From: Patescibacteria group bacterium
GTDB lineage: Bacteria > Patescibacteriota > Patescibacteriia > Patescibacteriales > UBA12465
DNA: 64,000 nucleotides
Assembly (NCBI GenBank): GCA_028692765.1
Contig: JAQUWT010000002.1
Span: forward strand, 34,049-98,048
Direction of reading: 5' to 3'
Position numbers and translations under genes: made by a program. Numbering within the stretch: the first letter of the stretch is position 1; every line of letters starts with the position of its first letter. The notes beneath the pieces are model-generated. The model saw nothing but the letters and a program-made list of their open reading frames with translations. It was not told where the DNA came from and made no database searches. Positions 603 through 15,481 of this stretch are shown here, piece by piece.

Positions 603-1202
603 TTATTTAAAATTTCTGATAATTTTAACAACCACCCCTCTTATTTCAATATCTTTTCTATAAATCGGCTCATATTTAGGGTTAGCCGGCTGTAATTTTA
701 TTTTGTTTTTTTCAACATAAAACTTTTTAAGAGTTGCTTCGTTTTCATCAATAATCGCCACAACCATATCGCCATTATCTGCCACTGATTGTTTTTTGGC
801 AATAATAATATCATTATCAAATATACCTTCTTCGATCATTGAATCACCCTCGACTTTTAAAGCATATAAATTTCCTTTCAAAACCGGTTCCCGGACTATT
901 TTTATATATTCGTTTGCCATTTCTATAGCTTCAATCGGTTTACCCGCTCGTATAATTCCCAACAAAGGAATCTCCATATACTGCTTTTTCTTGGGAATAA
1001 CTGCAATTCCTCGGGGACTTTTTTCGTCTCTTAATAAATAACCCTTATTAACTAATTCAGTAATATGTTCGTGAACGGTTGAAAGGGCGGATAATCCAAA
1101 ATTATCTTTTATCTCATCATATGTAGGGGAATAATGGTTTTTTTCTATATATGAAGAAATATATTCAAATATTTCTTGTTGTCTTTTTGTTAGTGGGCTC
1201 AT
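603..1202 (-). CDS. lexA: LexA-type repressor (winged HTH plus S24 autopeptidase)
   Basis: 199 aa. N-terminal LexA DNA-binding region (LTKRQQEIFEYI...STVHEHITELVNKGYL). Ala-Gly cleavage site (IIRAGKP). Catalytic Ser (VEGDSM) and Lys (ATLKKF). Confidence 0.85.
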   Translation of the reverse strand: MSPLTKRQQEIFEYISSYIEKNHYSPTYDEIKDNFGLSALSTVHEHITELVNKGYLLRDEKSPRGIAVIPKKKQYMEIPLLGIIRAGKPIEAIEMANEYIKIVREPVLKGNLYALKVEGDSMIEEGIFDNDIIIAKKQSVADNGDMVVAIIDENEATLKKFYVEKNKIKLQPANPKYEPIYRKDIEIRGVVVKIIRNFK

Positions 1203-1221: not shown

Positions 1222-1321
1222 CCCGAATATGAGCCGAAGTGCAAATGTGGACAAAAATCAAAAAAAAGATTATTATAAAAGGGTAATAATTATCTAAAAT
1301 AATATAAATAATTTGAAATAT

Positions 1322-2998
1322 ATGAATAAGTTTATCGAAGAAATTTTAAATATTTTAAAAAAAGATAAAAGACTCTTTTCAAAAGATGATAACAAGTTGC
1401 TTAAAGGCGAATTAATATCTCTTATTTCAAAAGATGATGAAAAACTTTTAGAGCTTTTAGCTTCTAATAAAGAAATAGAAAAAAGATTTTTTAAGAAAAT
1501 TGGTAAGATTACAATTTTTCAAAAAGAAAATTTTTTGCAGTTAATCACAATGAATGAATTTTTACCGGACTCATTTACTGCTTTTGAAGTTAATATAGGG
1601 TTATCTAATAATAAAAAATTAATATCCTCACAAGAAGATATTTCTTTAGTTTTTCCTCACAAAGATTGTATTTTAGAGGGTGGGCAGAATAAGGAAAATA
1701 CTAAAAGAGAAGAAATTTTTTATAATACAACATTAGCTCCCGATGAAGTGGATAGATTAAAAGAACCAAAAGTTCTAACTAATTGGAAAAAATTTGATAG
1801 CAAGGGTGAGCATAAAATAACAGATGTTTCATTGGAGGACAACTTAATAATTAAAGGAAATAATTTAATGGCGCTTTATTCTTTGCTACCAAATTATAGA
1901 AATAAAATAAAGTTAATATATATTGACCCCCCATATAATACCGGTAATGATAGTTTTAAATATAATGATAGTTTTAATCATGGCACATGGTTAACTTTTA
2001 TGAAAAATAGGTTAGAAGTAGCACGAGAATTGTTAAGTGATGATGGTTCTATATATATGCAATTAGACCATAATGAAGTTCATTATGGAAAAGTTTTAAT
2101 GGATGAAATTTTTGGTCGTAATAATTTTCAAAGAGAAATTATTTGGCATAAAGGAAATACTTTTGGATATGCGGCTTCAGCAGATAATTTTGTTTTAGCA
2201 CACGATTCTATTTTATTTTATTCTAAAACAAGTAATAAATTATTTAATAAAATATATAAAAGTTATTCAGATGAGTATATAAAAAAACGCTTTATACATA
2301 ATGATAATGATGGTAAAGGGCCTTATCGTATTCAAGGAAAAAATCAAAAGCAATATCTTAGTGATTCTAAAGGATTGGCTATGTCAGATGTTTGGACCAT
2401 ACCGGTTATAAATGTTATGGCGAAGGAAAAATTATTTGATACGCAAAAACCAGAAGCTTTATTGCAAATTATTATTGAGGCCTCCACTAATAAGAATGAT
2501 ATTGTTTTAGATTTCATGGCTGGATCTGGCACTACGTTGGCTGTGGCCCATAAAATTAATAGACGATATATTGGCATTGAGCAAATGGATTATATTCATA
2601 ACTTACCAGAAGCTAGATTAAAAAGAATAATTAAAGGAGAGCAGGATGGCATATCTAAAGAAGTAAATTGGAAGGGTGGAGGAAGTTTTATTTATACAGA
2701 ACTTCTTGAATGGAATAATAAATATATTAGAGATTTAGAAAGTGCTAAAACAAAGATTGATATTAAAAAAATAAAAGCAAAAATTGAAAAGGAAGCTTTC
2801 TATAAATATCAAATTGATACTAGTAAATTTGACAATAAGGAATTTGATAAATTATCAGAAAAGGAACAAAAAGAGGTTTTAATTGATGTTTTAGACATGA
2901 ATCATCTTTATGTTAACTTAGACTCAATTAATGATGCAACATTTGCCATCTCCAAAGAAGATAAAGAATTAAATAAAAAATTCTATAATCAAAAATAG
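1322..2998 (+). CDS. mod: Type III restriction-modification methyltransferase (Mod), beta-class N6-adenine MTase
   Basis: Motif IV IYIDPPYNTGND precedes motif I LDFMAGSGTT (beta-class order). A variable region lies between them. It sits directly upstream of res. ATG 1322 is preferred over the track's TTG at 1313. Confidence 0.85.
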   Translation: MNKFIEEILNILKKDKRLFSKDDNKLLKGELISLISKDDEKLLELLASNKEIEKRFFKKIGKITIFQKENFLQLITMNEFLPDSFTAFEVNIGLSNNKKLISSQEDISLVFPHKDCILEGGQNKENTKREEIFYNTTLAPDEVDRLKEPKVLTNWKKFDSKGEHKITDVSLEDNLIIKGNNLMALYSLLPNYRNKIKLIYIDPPYNTGNDSFKYNDSFNHGTWLTFMKNRLEVARELLSDDGSIYMQLDHNEVHYGKVLMDEIFGRNNFQREIIWHKGNTFGYAASADNFVLAHDSILFYSKTSNKLFNKIYKSYSDEYIKKRFIHNDNDGKGPYRIQGKNQKQYLSDSKGLAMSDVWTIPVINVMAKEKLFDTQKPEALLQIIIEASTNKNDIVLDFMAGSGTTLAVAHKINRRYIGIEQMDYIHNLPEARLKRIIKGEQDGISKEVNWKGGGSFIYTELLEWNNKYIRDLESAKTKIDIKKIKAKIEKEAFYKYQIDTSKFDNKEFDKLSEKEQKEVLIDVLDMNHLYVNLDSINDATFAISKEDKELNKKFYNQK

Positions 2999-3000
2999 TT

Positions 3001-5601
3001 ATGAATGAAAATAAGTTGTCAACTGAATATGACTCTTTAGAAAAAAGAGGGCATATATCAAAAGATATTCCCTCACTTATTTTTGATAATATTAATCCAA
3101 AATTTCAGCTAAGAAAATATCAAATAAGTGCAATTTCGAGGTTCGTTGAATATTATGAAAATGAGCCAGAAAAGGATTTTCCAATACAATTACTTTTTAA
3201 TATGGCAACCGGATCGGGTAAAACCCTGATAATGGTTGCTTTAATGTTATTTTTATATGATAAAGGATATAGGAATTTCGTATTTTTTGTTGATAAGACA
3301 AATATTATTAGAAAAACTATTGATAATTTTTTAAATATTGAATCTTCAAAATATCTTTTTAATAAAAGAATATTTATTGACGGGAAAGAGGTTATTTTAA
3401 AGAAGGTTGAAAGTTTTTCGGAGAGCTCAATGAATGCTATAAATATAAACTTTTCTACTATTTCCGGGCTTCATTCAAAATTAAACAATCCAAAAGAAAA
3501 CTCTTTAATTTATAAAGATTTTGAAAAAGAAAAAACAGTTTTTATATCAGATGAGGCTCATCATATTAATGCTTTAACTAAAAAAAATAAGAGCAAAGAA
3601 GAAGAGGAGAATATAACTTCATGGGAATATACAGTTAACAAATTAGTCAATTATCGCAAAGATAATGTTTTGTTGGAATTTACAGCTACAATAGACTGGG
3701 AAGATGAGTTTATTTTTAATAAATATAAAAGTAGAGCGATTTATGAATATGATCTTAGAAAATTTAGAGAAGATAAATTTTCTAAAGATGTTTTTTTAAT
3801 ACAATCTAATTCTGGGCTCAAAGAAAGAATGTTGCAGGCAGTTATCATTTCTCAATATCGACGAAAAGTTGCAGAAAATCACAAAATAGCACTTAAGCCA
3901 GTTATAATGATGAAATCGAAAACTATTAAAGAGTCTCAAGCAAATTATCAAAAATTTATTAAATTAATTGAAGATTTAAAAATTACTGATATTAAAAATA
4001 TAGAAAAAATTTCAAAAGATATTAGTGATGATGATAATATACTCAAAAAAGCTTTTTTGTATTTTGAAGAGAATAATATTAAATTATCCGATATAGTTAA
4101 TGAAATAAAAATTGAATTTTCGATTGAGCGATTAGTTGAGGTAAATAGCAACGAAGAAAGTGAACAAAAACAAATATTAGTTAACACCCTTGAAGAAATC
4201 GACAATGAAATTAGAGTTGTTTTTGCGGTTGATAAACTTAATGAAGGTTGGGATGTGCTTAATTTATTTGATATTGTCCGTCTTTACGGCACAAGAGATA
4301 GTGGTAAGCCCACTATTCAAGAGGCTCAGTTGGTTGGTCGTGGTGCTAGATATTTCCCATTTACATTGGATAATAAAGACGAAAAATATTTAAGAAAATT
4401 TGATGAAGAAGAAAATCATCCTTTAAGAGTTATTGAACAATTACATTTTCACTCAATCCAAAATCATCGCTATATTTCAGAATTAAGAAAAGCCTTAATA
4501 AAAAGCGGAATACATAAAGATACCGGAAGAGAAATAACATTAAAAGTAAAAAAATCTTTTTCCGAAACTAAATTTTTCAAAAAAGGTGTAATTTGGAAAA
4601 ATAAGAGAATTATTAATAAAAGAGAGAATGTGAATTCTATTTATGATGTCGGAGTGGAAAATAATTACAAGATAAGTATTGAGTCCGGATTATCTTTTAG
4701 TCAAATTTCAGGATTCGGCGATGATAAAGAAAGGGAAAAAAGTAAAGGAAAAATTATTAATAAAAAAATATGCGATTTACCTGTGCACTTATCAAGAAAG
4801 GCATTAGACAAAATACCGTTTTTTAATTTTGAAAATTTAAATAAATTTTTCCCAAAGATTGAATCAATTGAAGAATTTATTTTACATAACAATTATTTAG
4901 GCAATATAAACCTTGAAATCGAAAGTGATGAAAACGAAATTGATTCAAATAAAATTTTTGATAAATTAATACAAGTGTTTGAAAATATTAAAAATACTAT
5001 TAGAGCAAATTCTTCCGAATTTGAAGGATCAAAAGAATTTGAGGCAATACCGGTACGAACAAGTGTAGTAGAAAAAAAGATGTATATTGAAAAACCAAAA
5101 GATGGCTCGGAACAGGAATTTGGTTTATCGATGAGCAGTGAAAGTAATAGGGCAAAGCTAGATTTATCGGATAAGAATTGGTATGTATACAACGACGATT
5201 ATGGCACTGATGAAGAAAAATATCTCGTTAGGCTTATCCATGATAATATTGTAAAATTTGAGAGTAAATTTAAAGAAATTTATTTAATAAGGAATCAAAA
5301 AATATTAGAAATTTATGATTTTAAAAAAGGACGAAGATTCGAACCGGATTATCTTCTATTTTTAGGAAACGGAAAAGCCAAAGCTGATTATTATCAGATA
5401 TTTATTGAACCAAAAGGCGGGCATATTGAAGAGGGAGATAAATGGAAGGAAGAGTTTTTACTTGAAATTAAAGAAGAAAAAGGAGTTTTAAATTTATTTG
5501 AAGATGATAAATATATTATAGTTGGACTTCCATTTTTTCAAGAAGATAAAAAACTTAAATTTAAAGAAATTTTTGGCAAAAAAATTGATACAACATTTTA
5601 A
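3001..5601 (+). CDS. res: Type III restriction enzyme Res subunit (SF2 helicase plus C-terminal PD-(D/E)xK nuclease)
   Basis: 866 aa. Helicase motif I MATGSGKT, motif II SDEAHH, and FTATID. C-terminal FEPDY...IFIEPKG nuclease motif. ATG lies 2 nt after the mod stop. Confidence 0.85.
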   Translation: MNENKLSTEYDSLEKRGHISKDIPSLIFDNINPKFQLRKYQISAISRFVEYYENEPEKDFPIQLLFNMATGSGKTLIMVALMLFLYDKGYRNFVFFVDKTNIIRKTIDNFLNIESSKYLFNKRIFIDGKEVILKKVESFSESSMNAININFSTISGLHSKLNNPKENSLIYKDFEKEKTVFISDEAHHINALTKKNKSKEEEENITSWEYTVNKLVNYRKDNVLLEFTATIDWEDEFIFNKYKSRAIYEYDLRKFREDKFSKDVFLIQSNSGLKERMLQAVIISQYRRKVAENHKIALKPVIMMKSKTIKESQANYQKFIKLIEDLKITDIKNIEKISKDISDDDNILKKAFLYFEENNIKLSDIVNEIKIEFSIERLVEVNSNEESEQKQILVNTLEEIDNEIRVVFAVDKLNEGWDVLNLFDIVRLYGTRDSGKPTIQEAQLVGRGARYFPFTLDNKDEKYLRKFDEEENHPLRVIEQLHFHSIQNHRYISELRKALIKSGIHKDTGREITLKVKKSFSETKFFKKGVIWKNKRIINKRENVNSIYDVGVENNYKISIESGLSFSQISGFGDDKEREKSKGKIINKKICDLPVHLSRKALDKIPFFNFENLNKFFPKIESIEEFILHNNYLGNINLEIESDENEIDSNKIFDKLIQVFENIKNTIRANSSEFEGSKEFEAIPVRTSVVEKKMYIEKPKDGSEQEFGLSMSSESNRAKLDLSDKNWYVYNDDYGTDEEKYLVRLIHDNIVKFESKFKEIYLIRNQKILEIYDFKKGRRFEPDYLLFLGNGKAKADYYQIFIEPKGGHIEEGDKWKEEFLLEIKEEKGVLNLFEDDKYIIVGLPFFQEDKKLKFKEIFGKKIDTTF

Positions 5602-5604
5602 AAT

Positions 5605-7521
5605 ATGAAATTAAAAAATGTAAAAATTAAAAATTTCCGGTCTTTAGATGAGATAGACTTTATTTTTAATCCAAATTGTAGAGTTTTGGTCGGCATAAAT
5701 GAATCCGGAAAATCTAATTTACTCAAAGCTTTATCAATGCTGGATAATGACAAAACCCCTAGTCCCTCTGACATTCGAGAAATTGGAGACTCAGAGGAGC
5801 CTATAGAAGAAGCTTATGTTAAGTTTATCTTTTTGTTTGATAAGAATGAAACAAATATTTTTTATGAAAATGTAAAAAATCAAATATTGGGACTTGATTC
5901 AAGTGAGGAGGTTGTAGAAAACGAATCTAATAAAAAAATTACACTAAAGGAGTTATCAAGCGAATGTGAAAAAGGAATATATAATGTTGATATAATAAAG
6001 GGTGAAAAGAGAGGTAAGGCTTATTCTTTAAATTCTTATAAATTATTGCCGATATTTAAAAAAATTACTGAAAAATGTCCAGCAGATTTTGTTGTTAAAA
6101 ATAAAAAAGAAGAAGATGTTAAATTGAGAGACTATAAAATTATTAATACGAGTCTTTTTGATGAAATGCCAACGGATTATTTTGAGGATGCCGGAATTAA
6201 AGATTTGCAAAATTTATTTAATCTAGAAATATGTAATTATGTTGAGGAGAATATTCCAGAAGTTTTATTTTGGGAATATGATGAAAAAAATATTTTGCCA
6301 CCAAAAATAAATATAAATGAATTCAAAGAAAATCCAAATGTTTGCCTTCCTTTAAAATATATGTTTTCTTTCTCCGGTATTCAAGATATAAAATCTGGAA
6401 TTGATAATTCGCAGAAAACAGATAAGGGATTTAAAAATTTACTTAATAGAATCGCTAAACAGAGTTCAACCCATTTACATAGTGTCTGGAAAGAATACAA
6501 AAAAATAGAATTTGAATTATTACCTAATGGTGAAAATATAGATGCCAGTATTAAAGATGAATATAATTCATTTGAGTGCGCTCAAAGAAGTGATGGTTTT
6601 AAGAGATTTGTTTCTTTCCTGCTTATGGTATCAATAAAGGCGAAGTCTGATTTATTGGACAACACTTTATTATTAATAGATGAACCGGACTCTGGCCTTC
6701 ATCCTTCTGGTGCAAGGTTTCTTAGGGATGAATTAATTAAAATTTCAAAGAATAATTATGTAGTGTATAGTAGCCATTCTATTTTTATGATTGATAGAAA
6801 AAATATCTATCGTCATTTAATAGTTGAAAAAGATAAAGAAATCACTACAATTAAGAATGCGGACGAGCATAATATAATCAAAGAAGAGGTTATTTATAAT
6901 GCTTTGGGATTTTCATTTTTCGAGACATTAAAAGACAGAAATATACTTTTTGAAGGATTTAGAGACGAGGTGTTATTCGAAAAAGCAACGCAAAAGATTC
7001 CTTCAAAATACTCTCAATTAAAGGGTGATTTAAAAGAAGTTGGTACTTGTTATGGTCATGGAGTTAAAAGTATGTCTCATATAACCCCTTTACTTAAATT
7101 AGCCGGTAGAAAAGCTTTTATTGTGAGTGATAATGATAGCCCCGCCAAGGAAAAGAAAAAAGAATATGAAAATAATAATGGTTATGGATTCTGGCTTACT
7201 TATGAAGAAGTTGATTCTGAGTTAAAAGTTATTACTGGTGAAGATTTTGTAAAAATATCCGCAATAATCGAGGCACTTAACAAAATTAAAACCGAGAAAG
7301 CTTTTAAGATTGATATTACTGAAAGTGATTTTACAAATCCAAATGGAAGGTTATATGTAATTGATAAATGGCTTATAGATAATAATATAAAAGATAAGCA
7401 AGTTAGAAAAGAAATTGTAAATAACATTAAAAATAATATTTTTTCTGATTTGAAATATACTCAAATTGAAGAATATTATTATGATTTTTTAGTAAAATTG
7501 GTCGAAAAAATAAATTTATAA
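5605..7521 (+). CDS. OLD-family / PARIS-like ABC-type ATPase fused to a Toprim-like nuclease domain
   Basis: 638 aa. P-loop GINESGKSN, signature-like RSDGFKRF, Walker B LLLIDEPDSGLHP, SSHS. C-terminal Toprim-like ILFEGFRDE and FIVSDNDSP (E...DxD). ATG lies 3 nt after the res stop. Confidence 0.7.
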   Translation: MKLKNVKIKNFRSLDEIDFIFNPNCRVLVGINESGKSNLLKALSMLDNDKTPSPSDIREIGDSEEPIEEAYVKFIFLFDKNETNIFYENVKNQILGLDSSEEVVENESNKKITLKELSSECEKGIYNVDIIKGEKRGKAYSLNSYKLLPIFKKITEKCPADFVVKNKKEEDVKLRDYKIINTSLFDEMPTDYFEDAGIKDLQNLFNLEICNYVEENIPEVLFWEYDEKNILPPKININEFKENPNVCLPLKYMFSFSGIQDIKSGIDNSQKTDKGFKNLLNRIAKQSSTHLHSVWKEYKKIEFELLPNGENIDASIKDEYNSFECAQRSDGFKRFVSFLLMVSIKAKSDLLDNTLLLIDEPDSGLHPSGARFLRDELIKISKNNYVVYSSHSIFMIDRKNIYRHLIVEKDKEITTIKNADEHNIIKEEVIYNALGFSFFETLKDRNILFEGFRDEVLFEKATQKIPSKYSQLKGDLKEVGTCYGHGVKSMSHITPLLKLAGRKAFIVSDNDSPAKEKKKEYENNNGYGFWLTYEEVDSELKVITGEDFVKISAIIEALNKIKTEKAFKIDITESDFTNPNGRLYVIDKWLIDNNIKDKQVRKEIVNNIKNNIFSDLKYTQIEEYYYDFLVKLVEKINL

Positions 7522-7541: not shown

Positions 7542-7578
7542 ATAATTTTGGTTCGAACATCGTCCGCGACCCCGAGCA
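7542..7578 (+). repeat. recombination-site-like direct repeat, copy 1 (core TCCGCGACCCCGAGCA at 7563-7578)
   Basis: 35/37 identical to 8600-8636. The core is shared with 8084-8099 and, at 15/16, with 15433-15448. Confidence 0.85.
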
Positions 7579-7654: not shown

Positions 7655-8014
7655 ATGTTTAAATTACCAACACTTGATTATAATGGTGGCCGACGTACAT
7701 ATCAAGATGCACCTGTAGTGGTAGAAAAAATCACTAAAGAACGCCATTGGGGAAATTTGTGGCTCAAAAGAACGCAAAAGATTTCTTTAAAGTTAAATTC
7801 ACCAGTCAAATTTCAAGACGAAGAGAGTGAAATAAAATTTTTAGGAAATATTATTATTCATGATCTAGCTGGAGATCTTTCGGGAGTTAAAATCGGTGAT
7901 GAACTGGTTGCTAGAATTGGTTATGCTGATAAAGAGCGACAATACTGGCAAGGTGTTAATGCTTTTTCTGTTTCCATTTTACAGCAAGGAGAAATGATGC
8001 AGCTTGTTCAGTAA
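7655..8014 (+). CDS. hypothetical 119-aa soluble protein (module A cargo)
   Basis: The ORF sits 75 nt downstream of its own promoter and is followed by a hairpin terminator. I recognise no motif. Confidence 0.55.
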   Translation: MFKLPTLDYNGGRRTYQDAPVVVEKITKERHWGNLWLKRTQKISLKLNSPVKFQDEESEIKFLGNIIIHDLAGDLSGVKIGDELVARIGYADKERQYWQGVNAFSVSILQQGEMMQLVQ

Positions 8015-8035: not shown

Positions 8036-8066
8036 AGGACTTACTTTTTATAGTAAGTCCTTTTTA
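8036..8066 (+). terminator. rho-independent terminator of module A
   Basis: Stem AGGACTTACT/AGTAAGTCCT with a 6-nt loop, followed by a T-run. Confidence 0.8.
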
Positions 8067-8072
8067 ATTTGA

Positions 8073-8099
8073 TTTGAACATCGTCCGCGACCCCGAGCA
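8073..8099 (+). repeat. recombination-site-like direct repeat, copy 2 (core 8084-8099)
   Basis: 26/27 identical to 7552-7578. Confidence 0.85.
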
Positions 8100-8100
8100 C

Positions 8101-8134
8101 TTGACAAAAAAGTATACTTATAGTATACTTTTTT
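8101..8134 (+). promoter_or_regulatory. promoter of module B: TTGACA-N17-TATACT overlapped by a perfect 13+3+13 palindrome
   Basis: TTGACA at 8101-8106 and TATACT at 8124-8129. Palindrome AAAAAAGTATACT-TAT-AGTATACTTTTTT at 8106-8134. Confidence 0.75.
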
Positions 8135-8174
8135 GATAACTAAAATCATTGTCGAACATTTAAAACTTTATACC

Positions 8175-8540
8175 ATGAAGACAAAACAACAAATTTACAA
8201 CAATCTGTACAACAAAGCAAAGGAAAATGCTAAAACACATCAGGGGGTAATTGAATTTTTCATCGCATTAATTATCTCTCTCCTGTTTGCTTTATTTGTA
8301 ATCCACTATTTCCCATTTATCAACCCCTATCTTGCCTTTTTACCTTTAGCGGCATCTCTTATTCTTGTTGCTTCCTCATATAACGGCAAAAGTATTTGGA
8401 AGGTTTCCACTAAAACTGTTATTAAAGAAATGAGAAGGATTATAGATACTGAGATTCAGAAAGCGCAGGAAAGTAATTTCTCTTCTGATGAGCAAATTCA
8501 AAAAATGGAAGAGATTAAAAAAGACATTTCTGGGTGTTAA
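8175..8540 (+). CDS. hypothetical 121-aa protein with two predicted transmembrane helices (module B cargo)
   Basis: ATG 8175 lies 74 nt after TTGACA, matching the module A geometry. The track start at 8133 is a TTG inside the promoter. Hydrophobic stretches: VIEFFIALIISLLFALFVIHYF and LAFLPLAASLILVASS. Confidence 0.55.
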   Translation: MKTKQQIYNNLYNKAKENAKTHQGVIEFFIALIISLLFALFVIHYFPFINPYLAFLPLAASLILVASSYNGKSIWKVSTKTVIKEMRRIIDTEIQKAQESNFSSDEQIQKMEEIKKDISGC

Positions 8541-8561: not shown

Positions 8562-8586
8562 AAGGAGCTATTTAATAGCTCCTTTT
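8562..8586. terminator. hairpin between the convergent module B gene and the recombinase gene
   Basis: Stem AAGGAGCTA/TAGCTCCTT with a 5-nt loop. Confidence 0.65.
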
Positions 8587-10221
8587 CTATTTACTTAAAA
8601 TAATTTTGGTTCGAACATCGTCCGTGACCCCGAGCCAACGTAGATTAAGCGAGGTTAATACCTCGCTTTTTCTATAATCCTCGCCAGATTTTGGCGATTC
8701 TAACCTAGCCAATTCCGCATTAAATTTTTCCACGTTATTTCTTATTGGTAAAAGCCAATTATGATAAGAAATACTAAGCTTTTTATCAATTATCATCCGG
8801 TTCGAACCTAAAGAAACGAACAACTCTTTTTTATTTTTCGGATTGCCTTTTTCAAACTCTTTTAAAGCATGAGCGCAAAATCTAAAACGTTCTTTTGTCA
8901 GTTCAATTAATTCTTCCGGCGATTTTTTGTTTTCCTTGCTTGCCTTATCTTGTTTAGCTCCATTAATTAATTTATCTAGTTCTTTAAGCTGTTCACTAAA
9001 GCTTTCATTATCAATTAATTTTTTCGCTCGCATACTGATTAAATCTTTTTTCTCGGCTACTAATTCAACTAATTTGTCGCTTTGATTGTTTACAATAATT
9101 TTATTGGTCTTTTTTAATTCTTCCTTATCCCTATCTAATCTTTCTAAGGTCCAATTAAGAAAAAGTGGGTGCATTTCCAATTTCTTTAATTCTTTTTTAA
9201 TCTGTTTAAATAACTCCGGTTCGGATACGGAAATTTGTTGACAATTATTTCGTTTATGCGTGCAGTGATAATATAAATATTCTCTAATACCATTTTTACT
9301 TTTAATGTATTTAGTTTTTCTTTCAACGGTAATTGAGCAACCGCAAACGCCGCAGGTCATTAATCCTGAAAGAGGGAAGTCGTGTCGCTTTGGTCTTTTA
9401 ATACAACCTCGTTTGCCAACTAGCTCTTGAATACGATTATATTCGTCTAGAGTGATGATTGGTTTATGACTGCCTTGGCTTTCCTTGCCGTTATAGGTAA
9501 TTATACCAGCGTAAAAGGGGTTGGAGAGAATTTTATACCAAGTACTTCGAGAAAGTCGTTTACCGCCGCTTTTAGGCTGTTTCCTGGTCGTATACCCCCA
9601 CTCGTTAAGCTTGTTATAAACATAACTGGCGCTATAAGCACCGGTTAACATTAAATCAAAAGCTTTACGAAGCATCGGCGCTCGTTTCTTATCGGTAATT
9701 AATATCCGTTGGCCTTTTTCTAAACGCGTATCATTCAAATAGCCCTCCGGAGCAACGCCCGGCAACCAGCCGAGTGATATTTTCTTTTCCAGTCCTCGTT
9801 TTACATCCTTGCCAAGCTTGGACGAGAAATATTGTGATTGACTGAGAGCTAATTGAAGCATCATGATACCCTCCGGCGAGTTATCAAAATTATAGGAACC
9901 GAATTTAAGATTATAAATAACACCGGTGCGGACTAAATAGGTAATAGTAGAGGCGTCTATCTCGTTCCTTGACAATCTGTCCGGGTGCCAGGAGATAATG
10001 CCATGCGCCTCGCCCTTTCTAATCCGTTTAATCATTTCTTCAAAAGCCGGGCGGTTATAGGGCTTAAAGGCACTATGGCGCTCTTCAAAACAGTCAACAA
10101 TATCCAAGTCGCTAAAGAACTCTTTTACTTTATCTTTTTGGCTTTCAATGGAAAGTACTTGTCGTTCTTCACCCTCGGTCGATTTGCGGACATAGGCGAA
10201 GTATTTAATTTGATCGTTCAT
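8587..10221 (-). CDS. large serine recombinase (resolvase/invertase catalytic domain, recombinase domain, zinc ribbon, coiled coil)
   Basis: 544 aa. YVRKSTEGEERQVLSIESQ holds the catalytic Ser context; also HPDRLSRN. Cys cluster CGVCGCS...YYHCTHKRNNC. Long charged helical C-terminus. Confidence 0.9.
   Translation of the reverse strand: MNDQIKYFAYVRKSTEGEERQVLSIESQKDKVKEFFSDLDIVDCFEERHSAFKPYNRPAFEEMIKRIRKGEAHGIISWHPDRLSRNEIDASTITYLVRTGVIYNLKFGSYNFDNSPEGIMMLQLALSQSQYFSSKLGKDVKRGLEKKISLGWLPGVAPEGYLNDTRLEKGQRILITDKKRAPMLRKAFDLMLTGAYSASYVYNKLNEWGYTTRKQPKSGGKRLSRSTWYKILSNPFYAGIITYNGKESQGSHKPIITLDEYNRIQELVGKRGCIKRPKRHDFPLSGLMTCGVCGCSITVERKTKYIKSKNGIREYLYYHCTHKRNNCQQISVSEPELFKQIKKELKKLEMHPLFLNWTLERLDRDKEELKKTNKIIVNNQSDKLVELVAEKKDLISMRAKKLIDNESFSEQLKELDKLINGAKQDKASKENKKSPEELIELTKERFRFCAHALKEFEKGNPKNKKELFVSLGSNRMIIDKKLSISYHNWLLPIRNNVEKFNAELARLESPKSGEDYRKSEVLTSLNLRWLGVTDDVRTKIILSK
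8600..8636 (+). repeat. recombination-site-like direct repeat, copy 3, inside the last 15 codons of the serine recombinase gene
   Basis: ATAATTTTGGTTCGAACATCGTCCGTGACCCCGAGCC. On the minus strand it encodes LGVTDDVRTKIILSK followed by a stop. Confidence 0.85.
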
Positions 10222-10240
10222 ATATTTAATCTTTAAATAT

Positions 10241-10364
10241 CAAAAAGGGGCGGTCCTGAGGCTCCAACTAAATATCGCTAAAAGCAATACTTGTCGGCAG
10301 AACCGTCCCTTTTTGAGGGCAAGTATTAAAAAAGCTTTTAGCAATGATTATTTAGTTGGAGCCT
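10241..10364. other. nested inverted repeats with pseudoknot topology, 20 nt upstream of the recombinase start
   Basis: Four pairings: A 10241-10253 with 10303-10315 (13 bp, one G-T); B 10259-10274 with 10349-10364 (16 bp); C 10277-10285 with 10334-10342 (9 bp); D 10286-10293 with 10320-10327 (8 bp). Confidence 0.7.
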
Positions 10365-10383
10365 AACTACATAATACTATAAT

Positions 10384-10569
10384 TTAAGCTTTTTTCAAGC
10401 CCTTATAGTATTTGCAGTGTTCTGCCTTGGTCATTGGCTGATAAGTCATTCTTATTAAGATAATTAAGGCCTTTATTTGCTCTTCAGCCTGAGAGCGGTT
10501 TATTTCTTGTTTATAGACCTCTTTGTATAGCCCAATAAAGCTATCAATATCGGCTGGGCTTATAGTCAT
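10384..10569 (-). CDS. hypothetical 61-aa protein upstream of the recombinase on the same strand
   Basis: ORF from the track. Its composition resembles the recombinase gene. No motif recognised. Confidence 0.35.
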   Translation of the reverse strand: MTISPADIDSFIGLYKEVYKQEINRSQAEEQIKALIILIRMTYQPMTKAEHCKYYKGLKKA

Positions 10570-10656
10570 ATTTCAGCTCAGCGCTATGTTTTAATCAAAG
10601 GTATTTTTGAGTGTTTCCGAGTAGTCTGATTTACTAAATATTAGTTAACTATTTTA

Positions 10657-10712
10657 AGACGGCCTTTTGTGTGCCTATAGTCAAGTTAATATATATAGCA
10701 GGGAGGCCGTCT
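10657..10712. other. hairpin: 9-bp stem AGACGGCCT/AGGCCGTCT with a 38-nt loop
   Basis: Arms at 10657-10665 and 10704-10712 are exact reverse complements. Confidence 0.5.
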
Positions 10713-10714
10713 AT

Positions 10715-10795
10715 CTTGCCGGCCGCGTTTTCCTTTTTTGGCTCCCCCAAGGGGATGCCGCCAAAAAAAGGAAAAAACGCAGAGGCCGGGGCAAG
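10715..10795. other. 81-nt GC-rich imperfect palindrome (long bulged hairpin)
   Basis: CTTGCC/GGCAAG, GGCC/GGCC, GCG/CGC, T-runs against A-runs, GGC/GCC, and apical TCCCC/GGGGA centred near 10749. About 35 pairs with bulges. Confidence 0.6.
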
Positions 10796-10818
10796 TAATT
10801 CTAATCTAGCAAACTAGA

Positions 10819-11070
10819 GTTCCGCAAAGTTCGGTAGAAGATTTAGCGGAATTAATTTTAATCTTAGCAGGTGGGTATTCCCAAAAGTTCCGGGGTAAAT
10901 TTAGGGGAAGAAATTGACCTTATTTTATCTAATATTAAGAAAACTGAATTTTTAAATTTTCAAGTCTAAAAAATATATTAATTCTTTCTCCACAATAGCA
11001 AAACGATCTTTGACAAAGTTTGGTCAAAGATTTGGCCTAAGATTTTGGCTTTATTTTGGCTAATATTAAT
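10819..11070 (+). repeat. three degenerate ~55-65 nt direct repeats (iteron-like)
   Basis: Units start near 10819, 10876 and 11006. Shared frame: CAAAGTT..GG..AA.ATTT.G....AAGA..TT...CTTATTTT..CTAATATTAA. Each has an internal short inverted repeat of different sequence. Confidence 0.5.
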
Positions 11071-11184
11071 TATAATGATTTTATTAAAATATAAACAAAA
11101 ATAATTTTGAAATTTTTAATTTATGATATTATATTATGTAATATTTTTAATTATATTATTTAACTAAAATTAAATAAAACATTA

Positions 11185-11198
11185 TTGTAATATTACAA
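11185..11198. promoter_or_regulatory. perfect 14-bp palindrome TTGTAATATTACAA, 60 bp upstream of the HTH-operon -35
   Basis: The sequence is its own reverse complement. Confidence 0.4.
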
Positions 11199-11257
11199 AG
11201 ATAAGTTAAATATTCATATATTTACTACACTTTTATTGTTATCGGTATTTTAATTAT

Positions 11258-11286
11258 TTGACAGCGGTTTCGCTATTTGATAAAAT
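11258..11286 (+). promoter_or_regulatory. near-consensus promoter TTGACA-N17-TAAAAT with an extended -10 TG
   Basis: TTGACA at 11258-11263, TGA at 11278-11280, TAAAAT at 11281-11286. It lies 32 nt upstream of ATG 11318. Confidence 0.75.
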
Positions 11287-11317
11287 ATCACCATAAATCA
11301 TTAATTGGACAAAAAAT

Positions 11318-11545
11318 ATGGCAAAACAAGCAATCGAAAACGAAGAAGTGTTGAAAAGACTTAATATTCTTATTGCATTAAATCTTCAGTCGCTTTCTAA
11401 AAAAAAGGAGGAATTAGACACTAGAGGGCAGATTGCCTTTCTTTCTAGCCTAAAATTGAAAGCCAATGAGATTGCTGAGATCCTTGGGAAAACAAGCAAC
11501 TATGTTAATAAAGAATTATTTTATATACGAAAAGATAATAAATAA
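11318..11545 (+). CDS. mini-HTH protein, paralog 1 of 4 (75 aa)
   Basis: N-terminal hydrophobic helix LKRLNILIALNL. C-terminal HTH-like ANEIAEILGKTSNYVNKEL. Confidence 0.6.
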   Translation: MAKQAIENEEVLKRLNILIALNLQSLSKKKEELDTRGQIAFLSSLKLKANEIAEILGKTSNYVNKELFYIRKDNK

Positions 11546-11553
11546 TTAATTAT

Positions 11554-11757
11554 ATGGAAAAACAAGATATTCTATTTTCGAAATTAGATTTAATAACATA
11601 TTTATTGGTGTTAAATTTAAAAAACGCTGGCGTCATGGATGATAAAATTTTAAAAAACTTGGTAAGCATGTTAGTAAAAAGTGGTTACCCCTGGCGAGAT
11701 ATTAGTAGTTTTTTAAATGTTAGTCCTAATACAATTAGTAAATTAACTAAAAAATAA
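11554..11757 (+). CDS. mini-HTH protein, paralog 2 of 4 (67 aa)
   Basis: Helix FSKLDLITYLLVLNL. C-terminal WRDISSFLNVSPNTISKL. The start context TTATATGGAAAAA is shared with paralog 3. Confidence 0.6.
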   Translation: MEKQDILFSKLDLITYLLVLNLKNAGVMDDKILKNLVSMLVKSGYPWRDISSFLNVSPNTISKLTKK

Positions 11758-11762
11758 ATTAT

Positions 11763-11975
11763 ATGGAAAAAGAAAATTTTGATAGTATTTCAAAAAAATT
11801 ATCAGTGTTAGTTTCGCTCTTAATAAGCAACAACGATGGTTACAAGACAACTAAGGAAAGGATTGAGTATTTGAAAAAATTCAATTTATCAAACGTTGAA
11901 ATTGCTGAAATACTAAACACTTCAAAAAATACGGTGGAGGTAAATTTAACTAATTTAAAAAAAGTAAAAAAATAA
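11763..11975 (+). CDS. mini-HTH protein, paralog 3 of 4 (70 aa)
   Basis: Helix ISKKLSVLVSLLI. C-terminal NVEIAEILNTSKNTVEVNL, similar to sigma70 region 4 / LuxR-type HTH. Confidence 0.6.
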   Translation: MEKENFDSISKKLSVLVSLLISNNDGYKTTKERIEYLKKFNLSNVEIAEILNTSKNTVEVNLTNLKKVKK

Positions 11976-11979
11976 TAAT

Positions 11980-12219
11980 ATGAATAGCGAAGAAGAGATT
12001 TTAAAAATTTCAAAAAAATTAAACGTTTTAATCGCTTTTTCTATACGTCAGCTATTTAATGATGCAGATTTTTCAAACAAATCTAGAAATAAGAATGGAT
12101 TAGGAGATTTAGCTCGACACCTTAGTAATATGGGGCTCGATCCTAATGATATTTCCGAAATAGTTGGTTCTCCTGTGCAAAGTATTAGAACTTTATTAAC
12201 CCCAAAAAGACAAAAATAA
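11980..12219 (+). CDS. mini-HTH protein, paralog 4 of 4 (79 aa)
   Basis: Helix ISKKLNVLIAFSI. C-terminal PNDISEIVGSPVQSIRTLL. Confidence 0.6.
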   Translation: MNSEEEILKISKKLNVLIAFSIRQLFNDADFSNKSRNKNGLGDLARHLSNMGLDPNDISEIVGSPVQSIRTLLTPKRQK

Positions 12220-12220
12220 T

Positions 12221-12952
12221 ATGTCATCTAAACGTCTTGACCGGGGCTTGATGTCAAAAATTGCAAAAAAAATTGGCGAAAAAAATATTTATCGCATCAA
12301 TGTGATAGTTAGCAAACAGGCATCAAAATTAGGAATATCTTCCGAGGCATCCTTAGTATTGTTAGCAAAAAAATACGGAATCGGTGTATCTACATATCAG
12401 AAAAGTTTAGACAGTATAAAACAGACAGAAATCAGAGATTCAATGTTGACGATGATAACACCTGTACAGACAAAAATAAGTTTATCAACTAATAAGATTT
12501 CTAATAGTATAAAAAGTGTCTCTAACAAAAAGTCTTCTCTAAAACTCGCCATAGAGTATTTAATAGAAGATAAGGAGTTGTTGGATAGATGCGGGGATAT
12601 TTTATTGGCTTCAAAAAATTTTGACAGACCAATTAACCAGGCAACTCTTGTTCTGGAAGATAGAATCAGAACAAAGTCGCAACCAACAAAGAAATTGGTT
12701 GGCGAGAATTTAGTCGGCTACGCATTTAATGAAGATATTTCCAAATCGGTGCTCAAAGTAGAAAGCATGGATTCAGAAGATCAGAGAGGTTTTACACAAA
12801 TTTTAAGAGGAATATTTCCACTATTCAGAAACAAAACCCATCACCATGTAATTAAAAGCTTTTCAAGGGAAGAAGCTATGAGAGTATGTGGTTTTATTGA
12901 TGTAATTTTACGTATTGTAGATAAATCAAATAAAACAACGGAAAAACAATAA
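12221..12952 (+). CDS. protein with a C-terminal Hypoth_Ymh (TIGR02391)-like domain
   Basis: 243 aa. The C-terminal segment LVGENLVGYAF...GFTQILRGIFPLFRNKTHHH matches my recollection of the RN..aH signature of that family. ATG lies 1 nt after the paralog 4 stop. Confidence 0.5.
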   Translation: MSSKRLDRGLMSKIAKKIGEKNIYRINVIVSKQASKLGISSEASLVLLAKKYGIGVSTYQKSLDSIKQTEIRDSMLTMITPVQTKISLSTNKISNSIKSVSNKKSSLKLAIEYLIEDKELLDRCGDILLASKNFDRPINQATLVLEDRIRTKSQPTKKLVGENLVGYAFNEDISKSVLKVESMDSEDQRGFTQILRGIFPLFRNKTHHHVIKSFSREEAMRVCGFIDVILRIVDKSNKTTEKQ

Positions 12953-12976
12953 TTTTTAATATCCGTAAGATTATTT

Positions 12977-13005
12977 TTGACTTTTAGCCTATAAAATCAT
13001 AAAAT
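12977..13005 (+). promoter_or_regulatory. promoter TTGACT-N17-TAAAAT upstream of the Type II methyltransferase
   Basis: TTGACT at 12977-12982 and TAAAAT at 13000-13005. Confidence 0.6.
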
Positions 13006-13056
13006 TAGGTCAAAGAATAAGACTTTATCTTTTCTTCATATCCAATTTGCTATAAT

Positions 13057-13917
13057 ATGACTACCTCAAAAAAGGCCGTAAAAACTAAGAAAAAAAGCAA
13101 AAAAATGCTAGATCCATTTTTTAAGGATAAGGACTTTAAATTGTACCAAGCCAATAGCTTGGAGTTTTTAGCTACTTTGCCGGAGAACTCAGTTGACATG
13201 ATATTTGCCGATCCGCCATATATGCTTTCTAATGGCGGGTTTTCCGTTCATGCCGGCCGGATGGTCAGCGTTAATAAAGGTGAATGGGACGTTAGTAATG
13301 GTCTAAAAAAGGATTTTGAATTTCAACTAGCCTGGATTAAAGCTTGTCATAGAGTTTTAAAGCCAGGAGGCACGATTTGGATTTCTGGTACATATCACTC
13401 AATTTATCAATGTGGTTTTGCTCTCCAGGTGAGCAAATTCCACATCCTAAACGATATTGCTTGGTTTAAGCCTAATGCCTCGCCAAACTTAAGCTGTCGC
13501 TTTTTTACAGCTAGTCACGAGACTTTAATTTGGGCGAGAAAAGAATTAGTCCATCCTAAAACCGGTAAAGCAATAACCACCAAACATAAATTTAATTATG
13601 ACTTAATGAAAAATGGCAATTGGCCGGAAGACTTTTTGAAAAAGCCAAATCTTCAAATGCGTAGCGTTTGGTCTATGGGCACTCCGAAACCGGCAGAAAA
13701 GAAGTTTGGTAAGCACCCGACCCAGAAACCGATTGATCTATTGGTTCGCATTGTTATGGCCAGCACTGATAAAGGCGATATAGTTATTGATCCGTTTACC
13801 GGCTCGTCAACGACCGGTTTAGCCTGTGCTCTTAATGGCCGTAAATTTATTGGCATTGATTTAGAGAAGAAATATCTGGAATTATCGGTTAAGAGGTATA
13901 AGGATTTAATAAAATAA
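13057..13917 (+). CDS. beta-class DNA methyltransferase (N6-adenine or N4-cytosine)
   Basis: 286 aa. Motif IV FADPPY precedes motif I IDPFTGSSTTG. Also FTASHETLIWA. Confidence 0.85.
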   Translation: MTTSKKAVKTKKKSKKMLDPFFKDKDFKLYQANSLEFLATLPENSVDMIFADPPYMLSNGGFSVHAGRMVSVNKGEWDVSNGLKKDFEFQLAWIKACHRVLKPGGTIWISGTYHSIYQCGFALQVSKFHILNDIAWFKPNASPNLSCRFFTASHETLIWARKELVHPKTGKAITTKHKFNYDLMKNGNWPEDFLKKPNLQMRSVWSMGTPKPAEKKFGKHPTQKPIDLLVRIVMASTDKGDIVIDPFTGSSTTGLACALNGRKFIGIDLEKKYLELSVKRYKDLIK

Positions 13918-13929
13918 TCTATTAAATTT

Positions 13930-14457: not shown

Positions 14458-14458
14458 T

Positions 14459-15403: not shown

Positions 15404-15432
15404 TTTATATAGTGCTTTTTTCTATAACTTCC

Positions 15433-15448
15433 TCCACGACCCCGAGCA
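15433..15448 (+). repeat. recombination-site core, copy 4 (TCCACGACCCCGAGCA)
   Basis: 15/16 identical to 7563-7578 and in the same orientation. It sits at the composition boundary of the island. Confidence 0.7.
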
Positions 15449-15454
15449 TAATTC

Positions 15455-15481
15455 AAAAATGAGCTGAAAGGCTCATTTTTG
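15455..15481. terminator. bidirectional hairpin terminator
   Basis: AAAAATGAGC-TGAAAG-GCTCATTTTT. Confidence 0.8.

What the first reader, a model, noticed from the sequence alone, without database searches (positions are those of the whole stretch)
1313..7521. Type III R-M operon extended by a translationally coupled OLD-family / PARIS-like ATPase-Toprim gene
mod (stop at 2998), res (ATG 3001, stop 5601) and a 638-aa ATPase-Toprim protein (ATG 5605) are separated by only 2 and 3 nt. They very likely form one operon.

The third protein has an ABC-type P-loop, a Walker B LLLIDEPDSGLHP, and a C-terminal E...DxD Toprim-like region. This is the architecture of P2 Old, Gabija GajA and fused PARIS AriA-AriB.

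The known partners of such proteins are UvrD-like helicases (Gabija), retrons, or none. I do not know of a fixed three-gene unit with a Type III Mod/Res pair having been described.

PARIS is triggered by the anti-restriction protein Ocr. One inference is that the ATPase-Toprim gene guards the R-M system against anti-restriction proteins. Alternatively it is a second effector loaded by Res translocation.
Basis: partly seen in the sequence, partly recalled or inferred. Interest (0 to 1): 0.78.

Follow-up and report, generated by a model that had tools for sequence, protein, structure and literature searches.

The report
OLD nuclease gene behind Type III restriction
An intact Type III restriction-modification operon is followed 3 bases later by a gene for an OLD-family ATPase-nuclease, but relatives show this is one interchangeable anti-phage gene in a variable slot, not a fixed three-gene machine.

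Summary
Mod and Res are a complete Type III pair. The third protein is an OLD-family ABC-ATPase/Toprim nuclease by profile, motif and predicted fold.

The idea of a fixed three-gene unit fails.
- Among 79 species-level loci carrying orthologues of the OLD gene, none repeats mod-res-OLD. 35 of the 64 loci informative on both sides are solitary.
- Of 39 Res-homologue loci with readable 3' flanks, none has OLD downstream.
- Syntenic relatives (Res 97%, 87%, 80% identical) carry unknown ORFs, a CBASS-like cassette, or nothing after res.
- An OLD gene 96% identical in DNA sits behind a DpnII system, and a 74%-identical one behind DpnI.

When this OLD clade does have co-directional adjacent partners, they are mostly restriction-modification or modification-based systems of many types (13 of 79 loci). 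One metagenome locus has a distant OLD gene between Type III mod and res.

This fits the published pattern of defence genes embedded in modification-based systems. I read it as a new member of a known kind, of modest interest.

The parts
1322..2998 (+). Type III mod, a beta-class N6-adenine DNA methyltransferase of 558 aa. The ORF opens at TTG 1313, but the likely start is ATG 1322.
   Evidence: Matches Pfam N6_N4_Mtase (6e-54) and TypeIII_RM_meth (1.8e-15), and PADLOC MTase_III (8.6e-167). The DPPY and FxGxG (DFMAGSGTT) motifs are present. The target-recognition region, about 2129-2470, is not homologous to relatives L086 and L087, indicating an allelic swap of that region.
3001..5601 (+). 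Type III res, an SF2 helicase with a C-terminal PD-ExK nuclease, 866 aa.
   Evidence: Matches Pfam ResIII (2.3e-28) and PADLOC REase_III (1e-130) over its full length. The motifs GSGKT, DEAH, TAT, QxxGRGxR and P782-D783...E803-x-K805 are invariant or nearly invariant (P782) in 26 homologues.
5563..5604 (+). Recombination junction: the last 13 codons of res plus the 3-nt spacer, shared with the leader of the OLD cassette in L001.
   Evidence: DNA identity to L001 (OLD 96% identical) begins at 5563. In the junction alignment the window follows L086 up to about 5550 and follows L001 from there on. All close Res homologues have homologous tails, so the 42 nt upstream of OLD in L001 are a remnant of a res 3' end.
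5605..7521 (+). OLD-family nuclease gene, 638 aa: an ABC ATPase with inserts, a Toprim domain, and a C-terminal helical region.
   Evidence: Matches PADLOC Old (3e-29) and Pfam AAA_15 and AAA_21. The AlphaFold2 model has mean pLDDT 85.3. The best Foldseek PDB hits are 6p74 (Thermus OLD, 1.7e-16) and GajA (2.8e-16). More than 1,000 homologues were found and the listed ones cover the full length.
5692..5718 (+). Walker A (P-loop) GINESGKSN, residues 30-38.
   Evidence: Eight of these nine residues are invariant in alignment A1 of 31 sequences; S37 varies.
6667..6705 (+). Walker B / D-loop LLLIDEPDSGLHP, residues 355-367.
   Evidence: D359, E360, L365, H366 and P367 are invariant in A1.
6937..7248 (+). 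Toprim core, residues 445-548, with E450, D509-x-D511 and E546-D547.
   Evidence: These acidic residues are invariant. The model shows the strand-helix alternation expected of Toprim. The Pfam OLD-like_TOPRIM match at 444-511 scores 0.004, below the cut-off.
7547..7577 (+). First copy of a G+C-rich repeat (TTTGGTTCGAACATCGTCCGCGACCCCGAGC), 26 nt after the OLD stop. It marks the right edge of the OLD cargo. Further copies lie at 8068, 8605 and 15426.
   Evidence: Reported as repeat families D1-D3. The same motif follows the cargo genes in L001, L080 and L086. Its function is unknown.

Best explanation
The locus is a complete Type III restriction-modification operon (mod-res) beside lexA, and its 3' flank is a variable slot for defence cargo. 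In this genome the slot holds an autonomous OLD-family gene of the single-gene (Class 1) type.

The OLD gene sits 3 nt after res, with no terminator-like site between them, so it is probably transcribed with mod-res. I infer that it works on its own as a second-line, probably abortive, defence. In that model its ABC-ATPase part senses an infection cue and releases the Toprim nuclease. By analogy with P2 Old, the cue could be aberrant or replicating phage DNA, or phage proteins that block host nucleases.

Shown here: the gene identities, the intact catalytic motifs, the operon-like layout, the interchangeability of the cargo, and the mosaic junction in the res tail.

Inferred: co-transcription, the trigger, the nuclease substrate (DNA or tRNA), and any benefit of linkage to restriction.
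For: - Gene identities and intact motifs.
- Fold.
- No terminator-like site inside the operon.
- OLD-centred survey: of 79 loci from different species, 35 of the 64 informative on both sides have no co-directional neighbour within 60 nt.
- Res-centred survey: 0 of 39 readable res 3' flanks carry OLD.
- Same chromosomal site, different cargo. L086 (Res 97% identical) has res followed by two unknown ORFs. L087-L092 (87%) have res followed by an S24/LexA-like gene, a 1-TM effector, a CBASS-type cyclase and DUF2130. L093/L094 (80%) have no defence cargo.
- Same OLD, different restriction partner. L001 (96% DNA identity) has a DpnII-type methylase and DpnII endonuclease, then a 66-aa ORF, then OLD. 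L080-L084 (74% protein identity) have DpnI, then a 67-aa ORF, then OLD.
- The crossover lies inside the last ~40 nt of res.
- Literature: Class 1 OLD proteins are single genes, and 107 of 837 old genes sit in species-specific operons that include defence genes (PMC6755086). ABC-ATPase/Toprim genes are often embedded, co-oriented, in modification-based systems (bioRxiv 10.1101/2024.01.29.577857). P2 Old is reported to be a tRNase activated by aberrant DNA (bioRxiv 10.64898/2026.07.10.737580).
Against: - Thirteen of 79 orthologue loci have restriction-modification or modification-based systems as co-directional adjacent partners. So do all three distinct contexts in the closest clade. This is more than simple adjacency would predict and could reflect functional dependence.
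- The enrichment estimate rests on an assumed background frequency. The binomial p is about 1e-5 if 2% of genes are restriction-modification genes, but only 0.04 if 5% are.
- No expression or phenotype data exist.
- Gene calls in the fetched loci were made with a crude longest-ORF rule.
Confidence: 0.7

Rival explanations
1. Generic guardian of restriction. This OLD clade is functionally tied to restriction-modification systems of any type. It senses that restriction is being subverted, for example by DNA-mimic anti-restriction proteins or by inhibitors of RecBCD-type nucleases that protect cut DNA ends. It then kills or arrests the cell, as PrrC and PARIS do.
For: - Co-directional adjacent partners of this clade are dominated by restriction-modification components: N6_Mtase in 6 proteins, HsdS in 4+2, HsdR in 3+2, ResIII in 5+4, N6_N4_Mtase in 3+1, plus DpnII, TdeIII and Type ISP.
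- In Type I loci the gene sits between hsd genes (L060, L063, L068).
- The window, L001 and L080 each have a restriction endonuclease gene directly upstream.
- L110 has a distant OLD gene (28% identical) between Type III mod and res.
- A trigger that comes from the phage, not from the restriction enzyme, is compatible with swapping of partners.
- Precedents are reviewed in PMC12707154.
Against: - More than half of the loci informative on both sides are solitary (35 of 64).
- Defence genes cluster and share operons for reasons of co-transfer and co-regulation.
- No trigger is known for this clade.
- At the same site, relatives carry CBASS-like or unknown cargo instead.
Confidence: 0.2
2. Dedicated three-component Type III machine. 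OLD is a specific partner of this Mod/Res pair, either loaded by Res translocation or guarding this enzyme in particular.
For: - The gaps are 2 and 3 nt and no terminator-like site intervenes.
- A remnant of a res tail travels with the OLD cassette in L001.
- One independent Type III locus has an embedded distant OLD gene (L110).
Against: - 0 of 79 OLD-centred loci and 0 of 39 Res-centred loci repeat the arrangement.
- Res alleles 80-97% identical lack OLD.
- An OLD gene 96% identical in DNA works behind an unrelated Type II system. That leaves no room for a co-evolved interface.
Confidence: 0.03
3. By-product of mobile-element integration. OLD is cargo of an element associated with the large serine recombinase at 8587-10221(-). 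That element inserts at, and regenerates, the 3' end of res, so the tight spacing reflects the integration site and not selection for co-expression.
For: - The res tail is mosaic, with the crossover in the last ~40 nt.
- A large serine recombinase lies at the far end of the variable region here and also in L088/L089, about 70% identical in DNA.
- A G+C-rich repeat marks the ends of cargo genes.
- G+C content rises from about 0.26 to 0.33-0.43 after 7.5 kb.
Against: - The recombinase belongs to the conserved frame, not to the variable part. Homology with L088 resumes at its 3' end.
- No att-like inverted repeats were found.
- L087-L092 lack the motif.
- The spacing TAAAATATG is kept in L001, where there is no res.
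Confidence: 0.12

Closest known systems
Class 1 OLD nucleases (P2 Old; Thermus scotoductus OLD, PDB 6P74; E. coli YbjD)
   Same: [quoted passage not shown]
- The best profile hit (PADLOC Old, 3e-29) and the best structural hit (6p74, 1.7e-16).
- Most clade members are single genes.
   Different: - Only about 16% sequence identity to 6p74.
- It is longer, 638 aa against 528 aa for the 6p74 chain.
- Here it sits at the 3' end of a restriction operon.
- No relatives were found in viral contigs by a pattern-limited scan, whereas P2 Old is prophage-borne.
Embedded ABC-ATPase/Toprim defence genes (HEC-01, HEC-04; Payne et al. 2024, bioRxiv 10.1101/2024.01.29.577857)
   Same: - The same logic: ATPase-Toprim genes sit co-oriented inside or beside modification-based defence systems.
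- Orthologues of this gene lie between hsd genes and inside a DISARM-like cluster.
   Different: - That study surveyed Hma, BREX, DISARM and Type I systems, not Type III.
- Here the gene is appended after res, not embedded between system genes.
- The best PADLOC model is Old. HEC-01A scores 1e-20, and HEC-04 is not among the top 25 hits.
PARIS (AriA-AriB)
   Same: The ATPase half matches the full length of the AriA model (3.2e-24, residues 1-396). Both combine an ABC ATPase with a Toprim nuclease.
   Different: - The nuclease half is OLD-type Toprim, not DUF4435/AriB.
- It is a single polypeptide.
- No evidence of an Ocr trigger.
- It is not in a phage or satellite hotspot.
Gabija GajA (Class 2 OLD)
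   Same: Overall fold (Foldseek 2.8e-16), and ATPase and Toprim motifs.
   Different: - No adjacent UvrD-like GajB. The neighbour is an SF2 Type III Res.
- GajA profiles score only about 1e-14.
PrrC in the EcoprrI Type I locus
   Same: An ABC-ATPase-type abortive effector genetically tied to a restriction-modification operon, the model for 'guardian' function (PMC12707154).
   Different: - PrrC is found almost exclusively embedded in Type I loci and is held latent by the enzyme. This OLD clade is mostly solitary and swaps partners.
- The effector domain is different.
EcoP15I/EcoP1I-type Type III restriction-modification systems
   Same: mod precedes res, and the helicase and PD-ExK motifs and the methylase motifs are intact.
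   Different: A third co-directional gene sits 3 nt downstream. The recognition region of Mod differs from that of close relatives.

Membership tests
OLD family nucleases | N-terminal ABC-type ATPase with Walker A, signature-like motif, Walker B and H-loop | tested here: met
   The motifs GINESGKSN, QRSDGFKRF, LLLIDEPDSGLHP and SSHS are present, and the core residues are invariant in 31 homologues. Pfam AAA_15 (3.2e-20) and AAA_21 (3.6e-17) match.
OLD family nucleases | C-terminal Toprim domain with a conserved Glu, DxD and further acidic metal ligands | tested here: met
   E450, D509, D511, E546 and D547 are invariant. The PADLOC Old alignment spans residues 343-521. Full-length structural matches to 6p74 and GajA were found. 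Pfam OLD-like_TOPRIM scores only 0.004, below its cut-off.
OLD family nucleases | Metal-dependent nuclease and ATPase activity | not testable with these tools
   This needs purified protein.
Class 1 OLD (single-gene) | No obligate conserved partner gene | tested here: met
   Thirty-five of 64 orthologue loci informative on both sides are solitary, and the partners in the others vary.
Gabija (Class 2 OLD) | Adjacent UvrD/PcrA/Rep-like helicase GajB | tested here: not met
   The neighbours are Type III Res and small unknown ORFs. Only 1 of the roughly 66 co-directional adjacent partner proteins in related loci has a UvrD domain.
PARIS (AriA/AriB) | AriB-type DUF4435 Toprim effector, separate or fused | tested here: not met
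   No DUF4435 hit at E <= 0.01. Only the AriA (ATPase) models match.
Retron-associated Class 3 OLD | Adjacent reverse transcriptase and msr/msd non-coding RNA | tested here: not met
   No Rfam family reaches threshold anywhere in the 64-kb window. No reverse transcriptase is among the neighbours.
MADS (methylation-associated defence system) | Multi-gene mad cluster with a Type I-like methylase (mad2) and the MAD3 ATPase | tested here: not met
   mad3 matches the ATPase half only (7e-19). The NCBIfam MAD3 score is 31.8 bits against a cut-off of 420. The methylase here is Type III Mod.
Type III restriction-modification system | Mod with methylase motifs IV (DPPY) and I (FxGxG) and a Type III N-terminal domain | tested here: met
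Type III restriction-modification system | Res with SF2 helicase motifs and a C-terminal PD-(D/E)xK nuclease, encoded directly after mod | tested here: met
   The residues D783, E803 and K805 are invariant.
   0 of 79 OLD-centred loci repeat mod-res-OLD. The nearest cases are L019 (OLD followed by a Type III-like methylase-helicase pair inside a DrmD cluster) and L026 (a helicase-methylase pair upstream). 0 of 39 Res-centred loci have OLD downstream, and 1 of the 80 Res-centred loci has a distant OLD gene between mod and res.

The most novel reading that the evidence does not exclude
The region downstream of res is a dedicated cassette-exchange site for defence genes. Its left arm is the res 3' tail. 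Its punctuation is a G+C-rich repeat of about 30-47 nt that follows each cargo gene. A conserved large serine recombinase lies at the far end. On this reading, the OLD clade is a module specialised to ride behind restriction enzymes of any type and to fire when restriction is subverted.
Probability: 0.1. Interest if true: 0.65.

Novelty: new member of a known kind. Interest (0 to 1): 0.3.

Why it matters
The finding adds Type III restriction-modification to the list of modification-based systems that carry co-oriented ABC-ATPase/Toprim defence genes. It also gives a clean natural experiment: the same OLD gene sits behind Type III, DpnII and DpnI enzymes, and the same mod-res pair carries OLD, CBASS-like or unknown cargo.

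That makes one question easy to set up. Does linkage of an OLD nuclease to restriction give synergy, or only co-transfer and co-expression?

It also flags a large, uncharacterised clade of about 640-aa OLD proteins. The clade has more than 1,000 homologues, many labelled Patescibacteria. For single-gene OLD proteins, anti-phage function is still poorly established (PMC10568477).

Tried and rejected
1. The 66-aa ORF before OLD in L001 is not a decayed Res C-terminus. Beyond the shared 13-aa tail its similarity to Res is no better than for shuffled sequence.
2. The small ORFs before OLD in L001 (66 aa) and L080 (67 aa) are not a conserved partner gene. They are not homologous (local alignment score 23). 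The ORFs downstream of OLD in the three contexts are not alike either.
3. Phase-variable repeats in mod: only weak A+T-rich tandem repeats were found.
4. The G+C-rich repeat as an RNA element. There is no Rfam match in the window and it folds no better than shuffles. The scan of viral contigs gave 57 single matches, which I did not test against chance and consider uninformative.
5. A phage origin for this OLD clade: no relatives were found in IMG/VR by the pattern-limited scan.
6. Promoter scan: not informative in this A+T-rich DNA.
7. MADS, Gabija, PARIS and retron membership: each fails a defining feature (see the membership table).
8. Taxonomy of the source is unresolved. Relatives are labelled Patescibacteria, but L001 is labelled 'uncultured Gammaproteobacteria'. 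The window itself is chromosomal, with LexA, DnaK, atpA/atpD and PBP2 and no tRNA genes.


Full report
**1. What is in the sequence**

Three co-directional ORFs occupy 1313-7521.
- mod opens at TTG 1313. ATG 1322 is the likely start, because homology to relatives and the gene call of L094 begin there. It stops at 2998.
- res runs from ATG 3001 to 5601.
- The third gene runs from ATG 5605 to 7521.
- The junctions are TAG-tt-ATG and TAA-aat-ATG.

No terminator-like hairpin lies inside the block. The first on the + strand is at 8036. The promoter scan is uninformative in this DNA of about 26% G+C (64 sites against 55 +/- 6 in shuffles). No Shine-Dalgarno sequence precedes any of the three starts. 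An operon is therefore the natural reading, but 'translational coupling' stays an inference.

**2. What the genes are**

Mod matches N6_N4_Mtase (6e-54), the Type III N-terminal domain (1.8e-15) and PADLOC MTase_III (8.6e-167). It has the DPPY and FxGxG motifs.

Res matches ResIII (2.3e-28) and PADLOC REase_III (1e-130) over its full length. It carries GSGKT, DEAH, TAT, QxxGRGxR and a C-terminal PD...ExK motif. These motifs are invariant or nearly invariant in 26 homologues. The Type III system looks intact.

The 638-aa protein matches AAA_15 and AAA_21. Its best PADLOC hits are Old (3e-29), then AriA (3e-24, ATPase half only), HEC-01A, mad3 and GajA.

An alignment of 31 full-length homologues at 43-74% identity shows invariant Walker A, signature-like, Walker B and H-loop residues. 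The Toprim ligands E450, D509-x-D511 and E546-D547 are also invariant.

An AlphaFold2 model (mean pLDDT 85.3) finds Thermus OLD 6p74 (1.7e-16) and GajA (2.8e-16) as its best PDB matches, aligned over the whole length. The sequence search of the PDB agrees.

The protein is an OLD-family nuclease. The Pfam Toprim hit alone is sub-threshold (0.004), and no DUF4435/AriB signal exists. 'PARIS-like' therefore applies to the ATPase half only.

**3. Is the three-gene unit conserved? The OLD side**

A scan of one genome per species gave 79 loci with orthologues at 33-97% identity. tblastn with the window's Mod and Res found a Type III-like pair in only two.
- In L019 the order is OLD, then a methylase, then a ResIII-like helicase. 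OLD there follows a DrmD-type SNF2 helicase (PADLOC 1e-219), so the cluster is DISARM-like.
- In L026 a helicase, best matched by a Type IV-like model, and a 318-aa methylase lie upstream.

Using a simple longest-ORF gene call, 35 of the 64 loci informative on both sides have no co-directional neighbour within 60 nt. This is the Class 1, single-gene pattern described by Schiltz et al. (PMC6755086).

**4. What the partners are when there are partners**

Pfam scans of the 66 co-directional adjacent neighbour proteins are dominated by restriction-modification domains:
- N6_Mtase/HsdM in 6 proteins;
- HsdS in 4+2;
- HsdR N-terminal domain in 3+2;
- ResIII in 5+4;
- N6_N4_Mtase in 3+1;
- single cases of DpnII, TdeIII and Type ISP.

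Clustering and PADLOC assign the loci as follows.
- L004, L011, L020, L048, L060, L063, L068 and L042 are Type I. In several of them OLD lies between hsd genes.
- L052 is Type IIG.
- L001 and L025 are Type II.

Thirteen of 79 loci thus have a restriction-modification or modification-based co-directional adjacent partner. At least 17 have such a gene somewhere in the fetched flanks, which is a lower bound because only some families were used as seeds. Whether this exceeds chance depends on an assumed background: the binomial p is about 1e-5 at 2% and 0.04 at 5%.

**5. The closest relatives of the OLD gene**

L001 carries an OLD gene 96% identical in DNA. The identity starts at window position 5563, 42 nt before the ATG, and ends at 7514. 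Upstream in L001 lie a DpnII-type methylase, a DpnII endonuclease (PF04556, 9e-90) and a 66-aa ORF, with gaps of 4, 6 and 3 nt.

P0002 is 74% identical and is seen on nine contigs. It follows a DpnI endonuclease and an unrelated 67-aa ORF.

The same OLD gene therefore follows three unrelated restriction enzymes.

**6. The Res side**

Res homologues 77-97% identical are all about 866 aa long and have homologous C-terminal tails. Their contexts differ.
- L086 (97%): lexA(-), mod, res, then two unknown ORFs.
- L087-L092 (87%): lexA(-), mod, res, then an S24/LexA-like gene, a 1-TM effector (PADLOC 6.7e-58), a CBASS-type cyclase (6.3e-94), DUF2130, and a large serine recombinase on the opposite strand.
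- L093/L094 (80%): mod, res, then an 84-aa ORF and housekeeping genes.

In 80 metagenome loci with Res homologues, 39 have a complete res 3' end and at least 700 nt downstream. None of these has an OLD relative there.

One locus, L110, has a distant OLD-family gene (28% identical; PADLOC Old 1.6e-33) between a Type III mod and res, overlapping mod by 4 nt and separated from res by 3 nt. This is an independent event with a different gene order.

**7. The junction**

The window follows L086 up to about 5550. It then switches to the L001 version for the last ~40 nt of res and onwards.

Because every close Res homologue has a homologous tail, the 42 nt before OLD in L001 are a remnant of a res 3' end. 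The rest of the L001 66-aa ORF is unrelated to Res.

So the OLD cassette once sat behind a res gene of this family and has since been moved or had its upstream module replaced. The crossovers lie in the res tail.

To the right, a G+C-rich repeat begins 26 nt after the OLD stop and recurs after the next two small ORFs and at 15426. The same motif follows cargo genes in L001, L080 and L086.

**8. Interpretation**

The best-supported reading has three parts:
- an intact Type III system;
- a variable slot for defence cargo at its 3' flank;
- an autonomous Class 1-type OLD nuclease occupying that slot here, probably co-transcribed with mod-res.

This matches the published 'embedding' pattern, in which ABC-ATPase/Toprim and other defence genes sit co-oriented in Hma, BREX, DISARM and Type I systems (bioRxiv 10.1101/2024.01.29.577857; a Type I example is in PMC11411939).

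How the OLD protein is triggered is unknown. P2 Old is reported to be a tRNase released from an inactive tetramer on binding aberrant or replicating DNA (bioRxiv 10.64898/2026.07.10.737580). PrrC and PARIS show that ABC-ATPase effectors can respond to anti-restriction proteins (PMC12707154).

A generic 'back-up for restriction' role remains possible, at about 0.2. A Type III-specific machine is very unlikely, at about 0.03.

**9. Limits**

- Gene calls in the fetched loci are crude.
- Only part of the neighbour proteins were annotated one by one.
- The surveys sample the best 80 matches, not the whole family.
- The background frequency of restriction-modification genes was assumed, not measured.
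- Nothing here tests expression or function.

Noticed in passing
window 7547-7577, 8068-8098, 8605-8635, 15426-15459 (all + strand): A G+C-rich repeat of about 30-47 nt (TTTGGTTCGAACATCGTCCGCGACCCCGAGC) lies 20-50 nt after the stop of successive genes. Two copies are followed directly by TTGACA-17-TATxxT promoter-like sites. It occurs nowhere else in the 64 kb. The same motif follows cargo genes in L001 (89, 5094), L080 (5918, 9281), L086 (7420) and L093/L094. It has no Rfam match and no significant fold. It might be a cassette boundary, an operator or a recombination site.
   Followed up: partly
window 7655-8014 and 8133-8540 (+): Two small ORFs (119 and 135 aa; the second looks membrane-like) each sit in a unit of about 520-540 nt made of the repeat, a promoter-like site, the ORF and a terminator-like hairpin (8036-8061, 8562-8584). 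Neither matches Pfam or NCBIfam; the first, the only one scanned, has no PADLOC hit. The layout resembles a short cassette array.
   Followed up: partly
window 8587-10221 (-): A large serine recombinase (Resolvase + Recombinase + Zn_ribbon_recom) is convergent with the cargo genes. A homologue about 70% identical in DNA occupies the same position after the CBASS-like cargo in L088/L089. It therefore belongs to the conserved frame of the variable region.
   Followed up: partly
window 2129-2470 (inside mod): The central region of Mod, the presumed target-recognition domain, is not homologous to that of relatives whose flanking mod sequence is 76-95% identical. The window's Mod is 558 aa, against 660-703 aa in those relatives. 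This suggests a swap of specificity domain.
   Followed up: partly
window 12221-15403 (+): A second cluster of defence-like genes: a Hypoth_Ymh protein (weak PADLOC PD-Lambda-3_B hit), an N6_N4 methylase (13057-13917) about 75% identical in DNA to the DpnII-type methylase that precedes OLD in L001, a weak PD-(D/E)xK ORF, and a DUF4268 protein. The fourth copy of the repeat follows.
   Followed up: partly
window 603-1202 (-): lexA lies divergent from mod, 119 nt away, and this arrangement is conserved in L086-L092. In L087-L092 a second S24/LexA-like gene heads the cargo after res. I saw no SOS-box-like site between lexA and mod on reading the sequence, and no pattern search was run.
   Followed up: no
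L110 335-6717: A metagenome contig with Type III mod (658 aa), an OLD-family gene (600 aa; PADLOC Old 1.6e-33) and Type III res (867 aa), with a 4-nt overlap and a 3-nt gap. This is a true embedded arrangement and arose independently of the window's.
   Followed up: partly
L087-L092, about 8722-12494: At the site where the window has OLD, relatives carry an S24/LexA-like gene, a 1-TM effector, a SMODS/AGS_C cyclase (CBASS-like) and a DUF2130 protein.
   Followed up: partly
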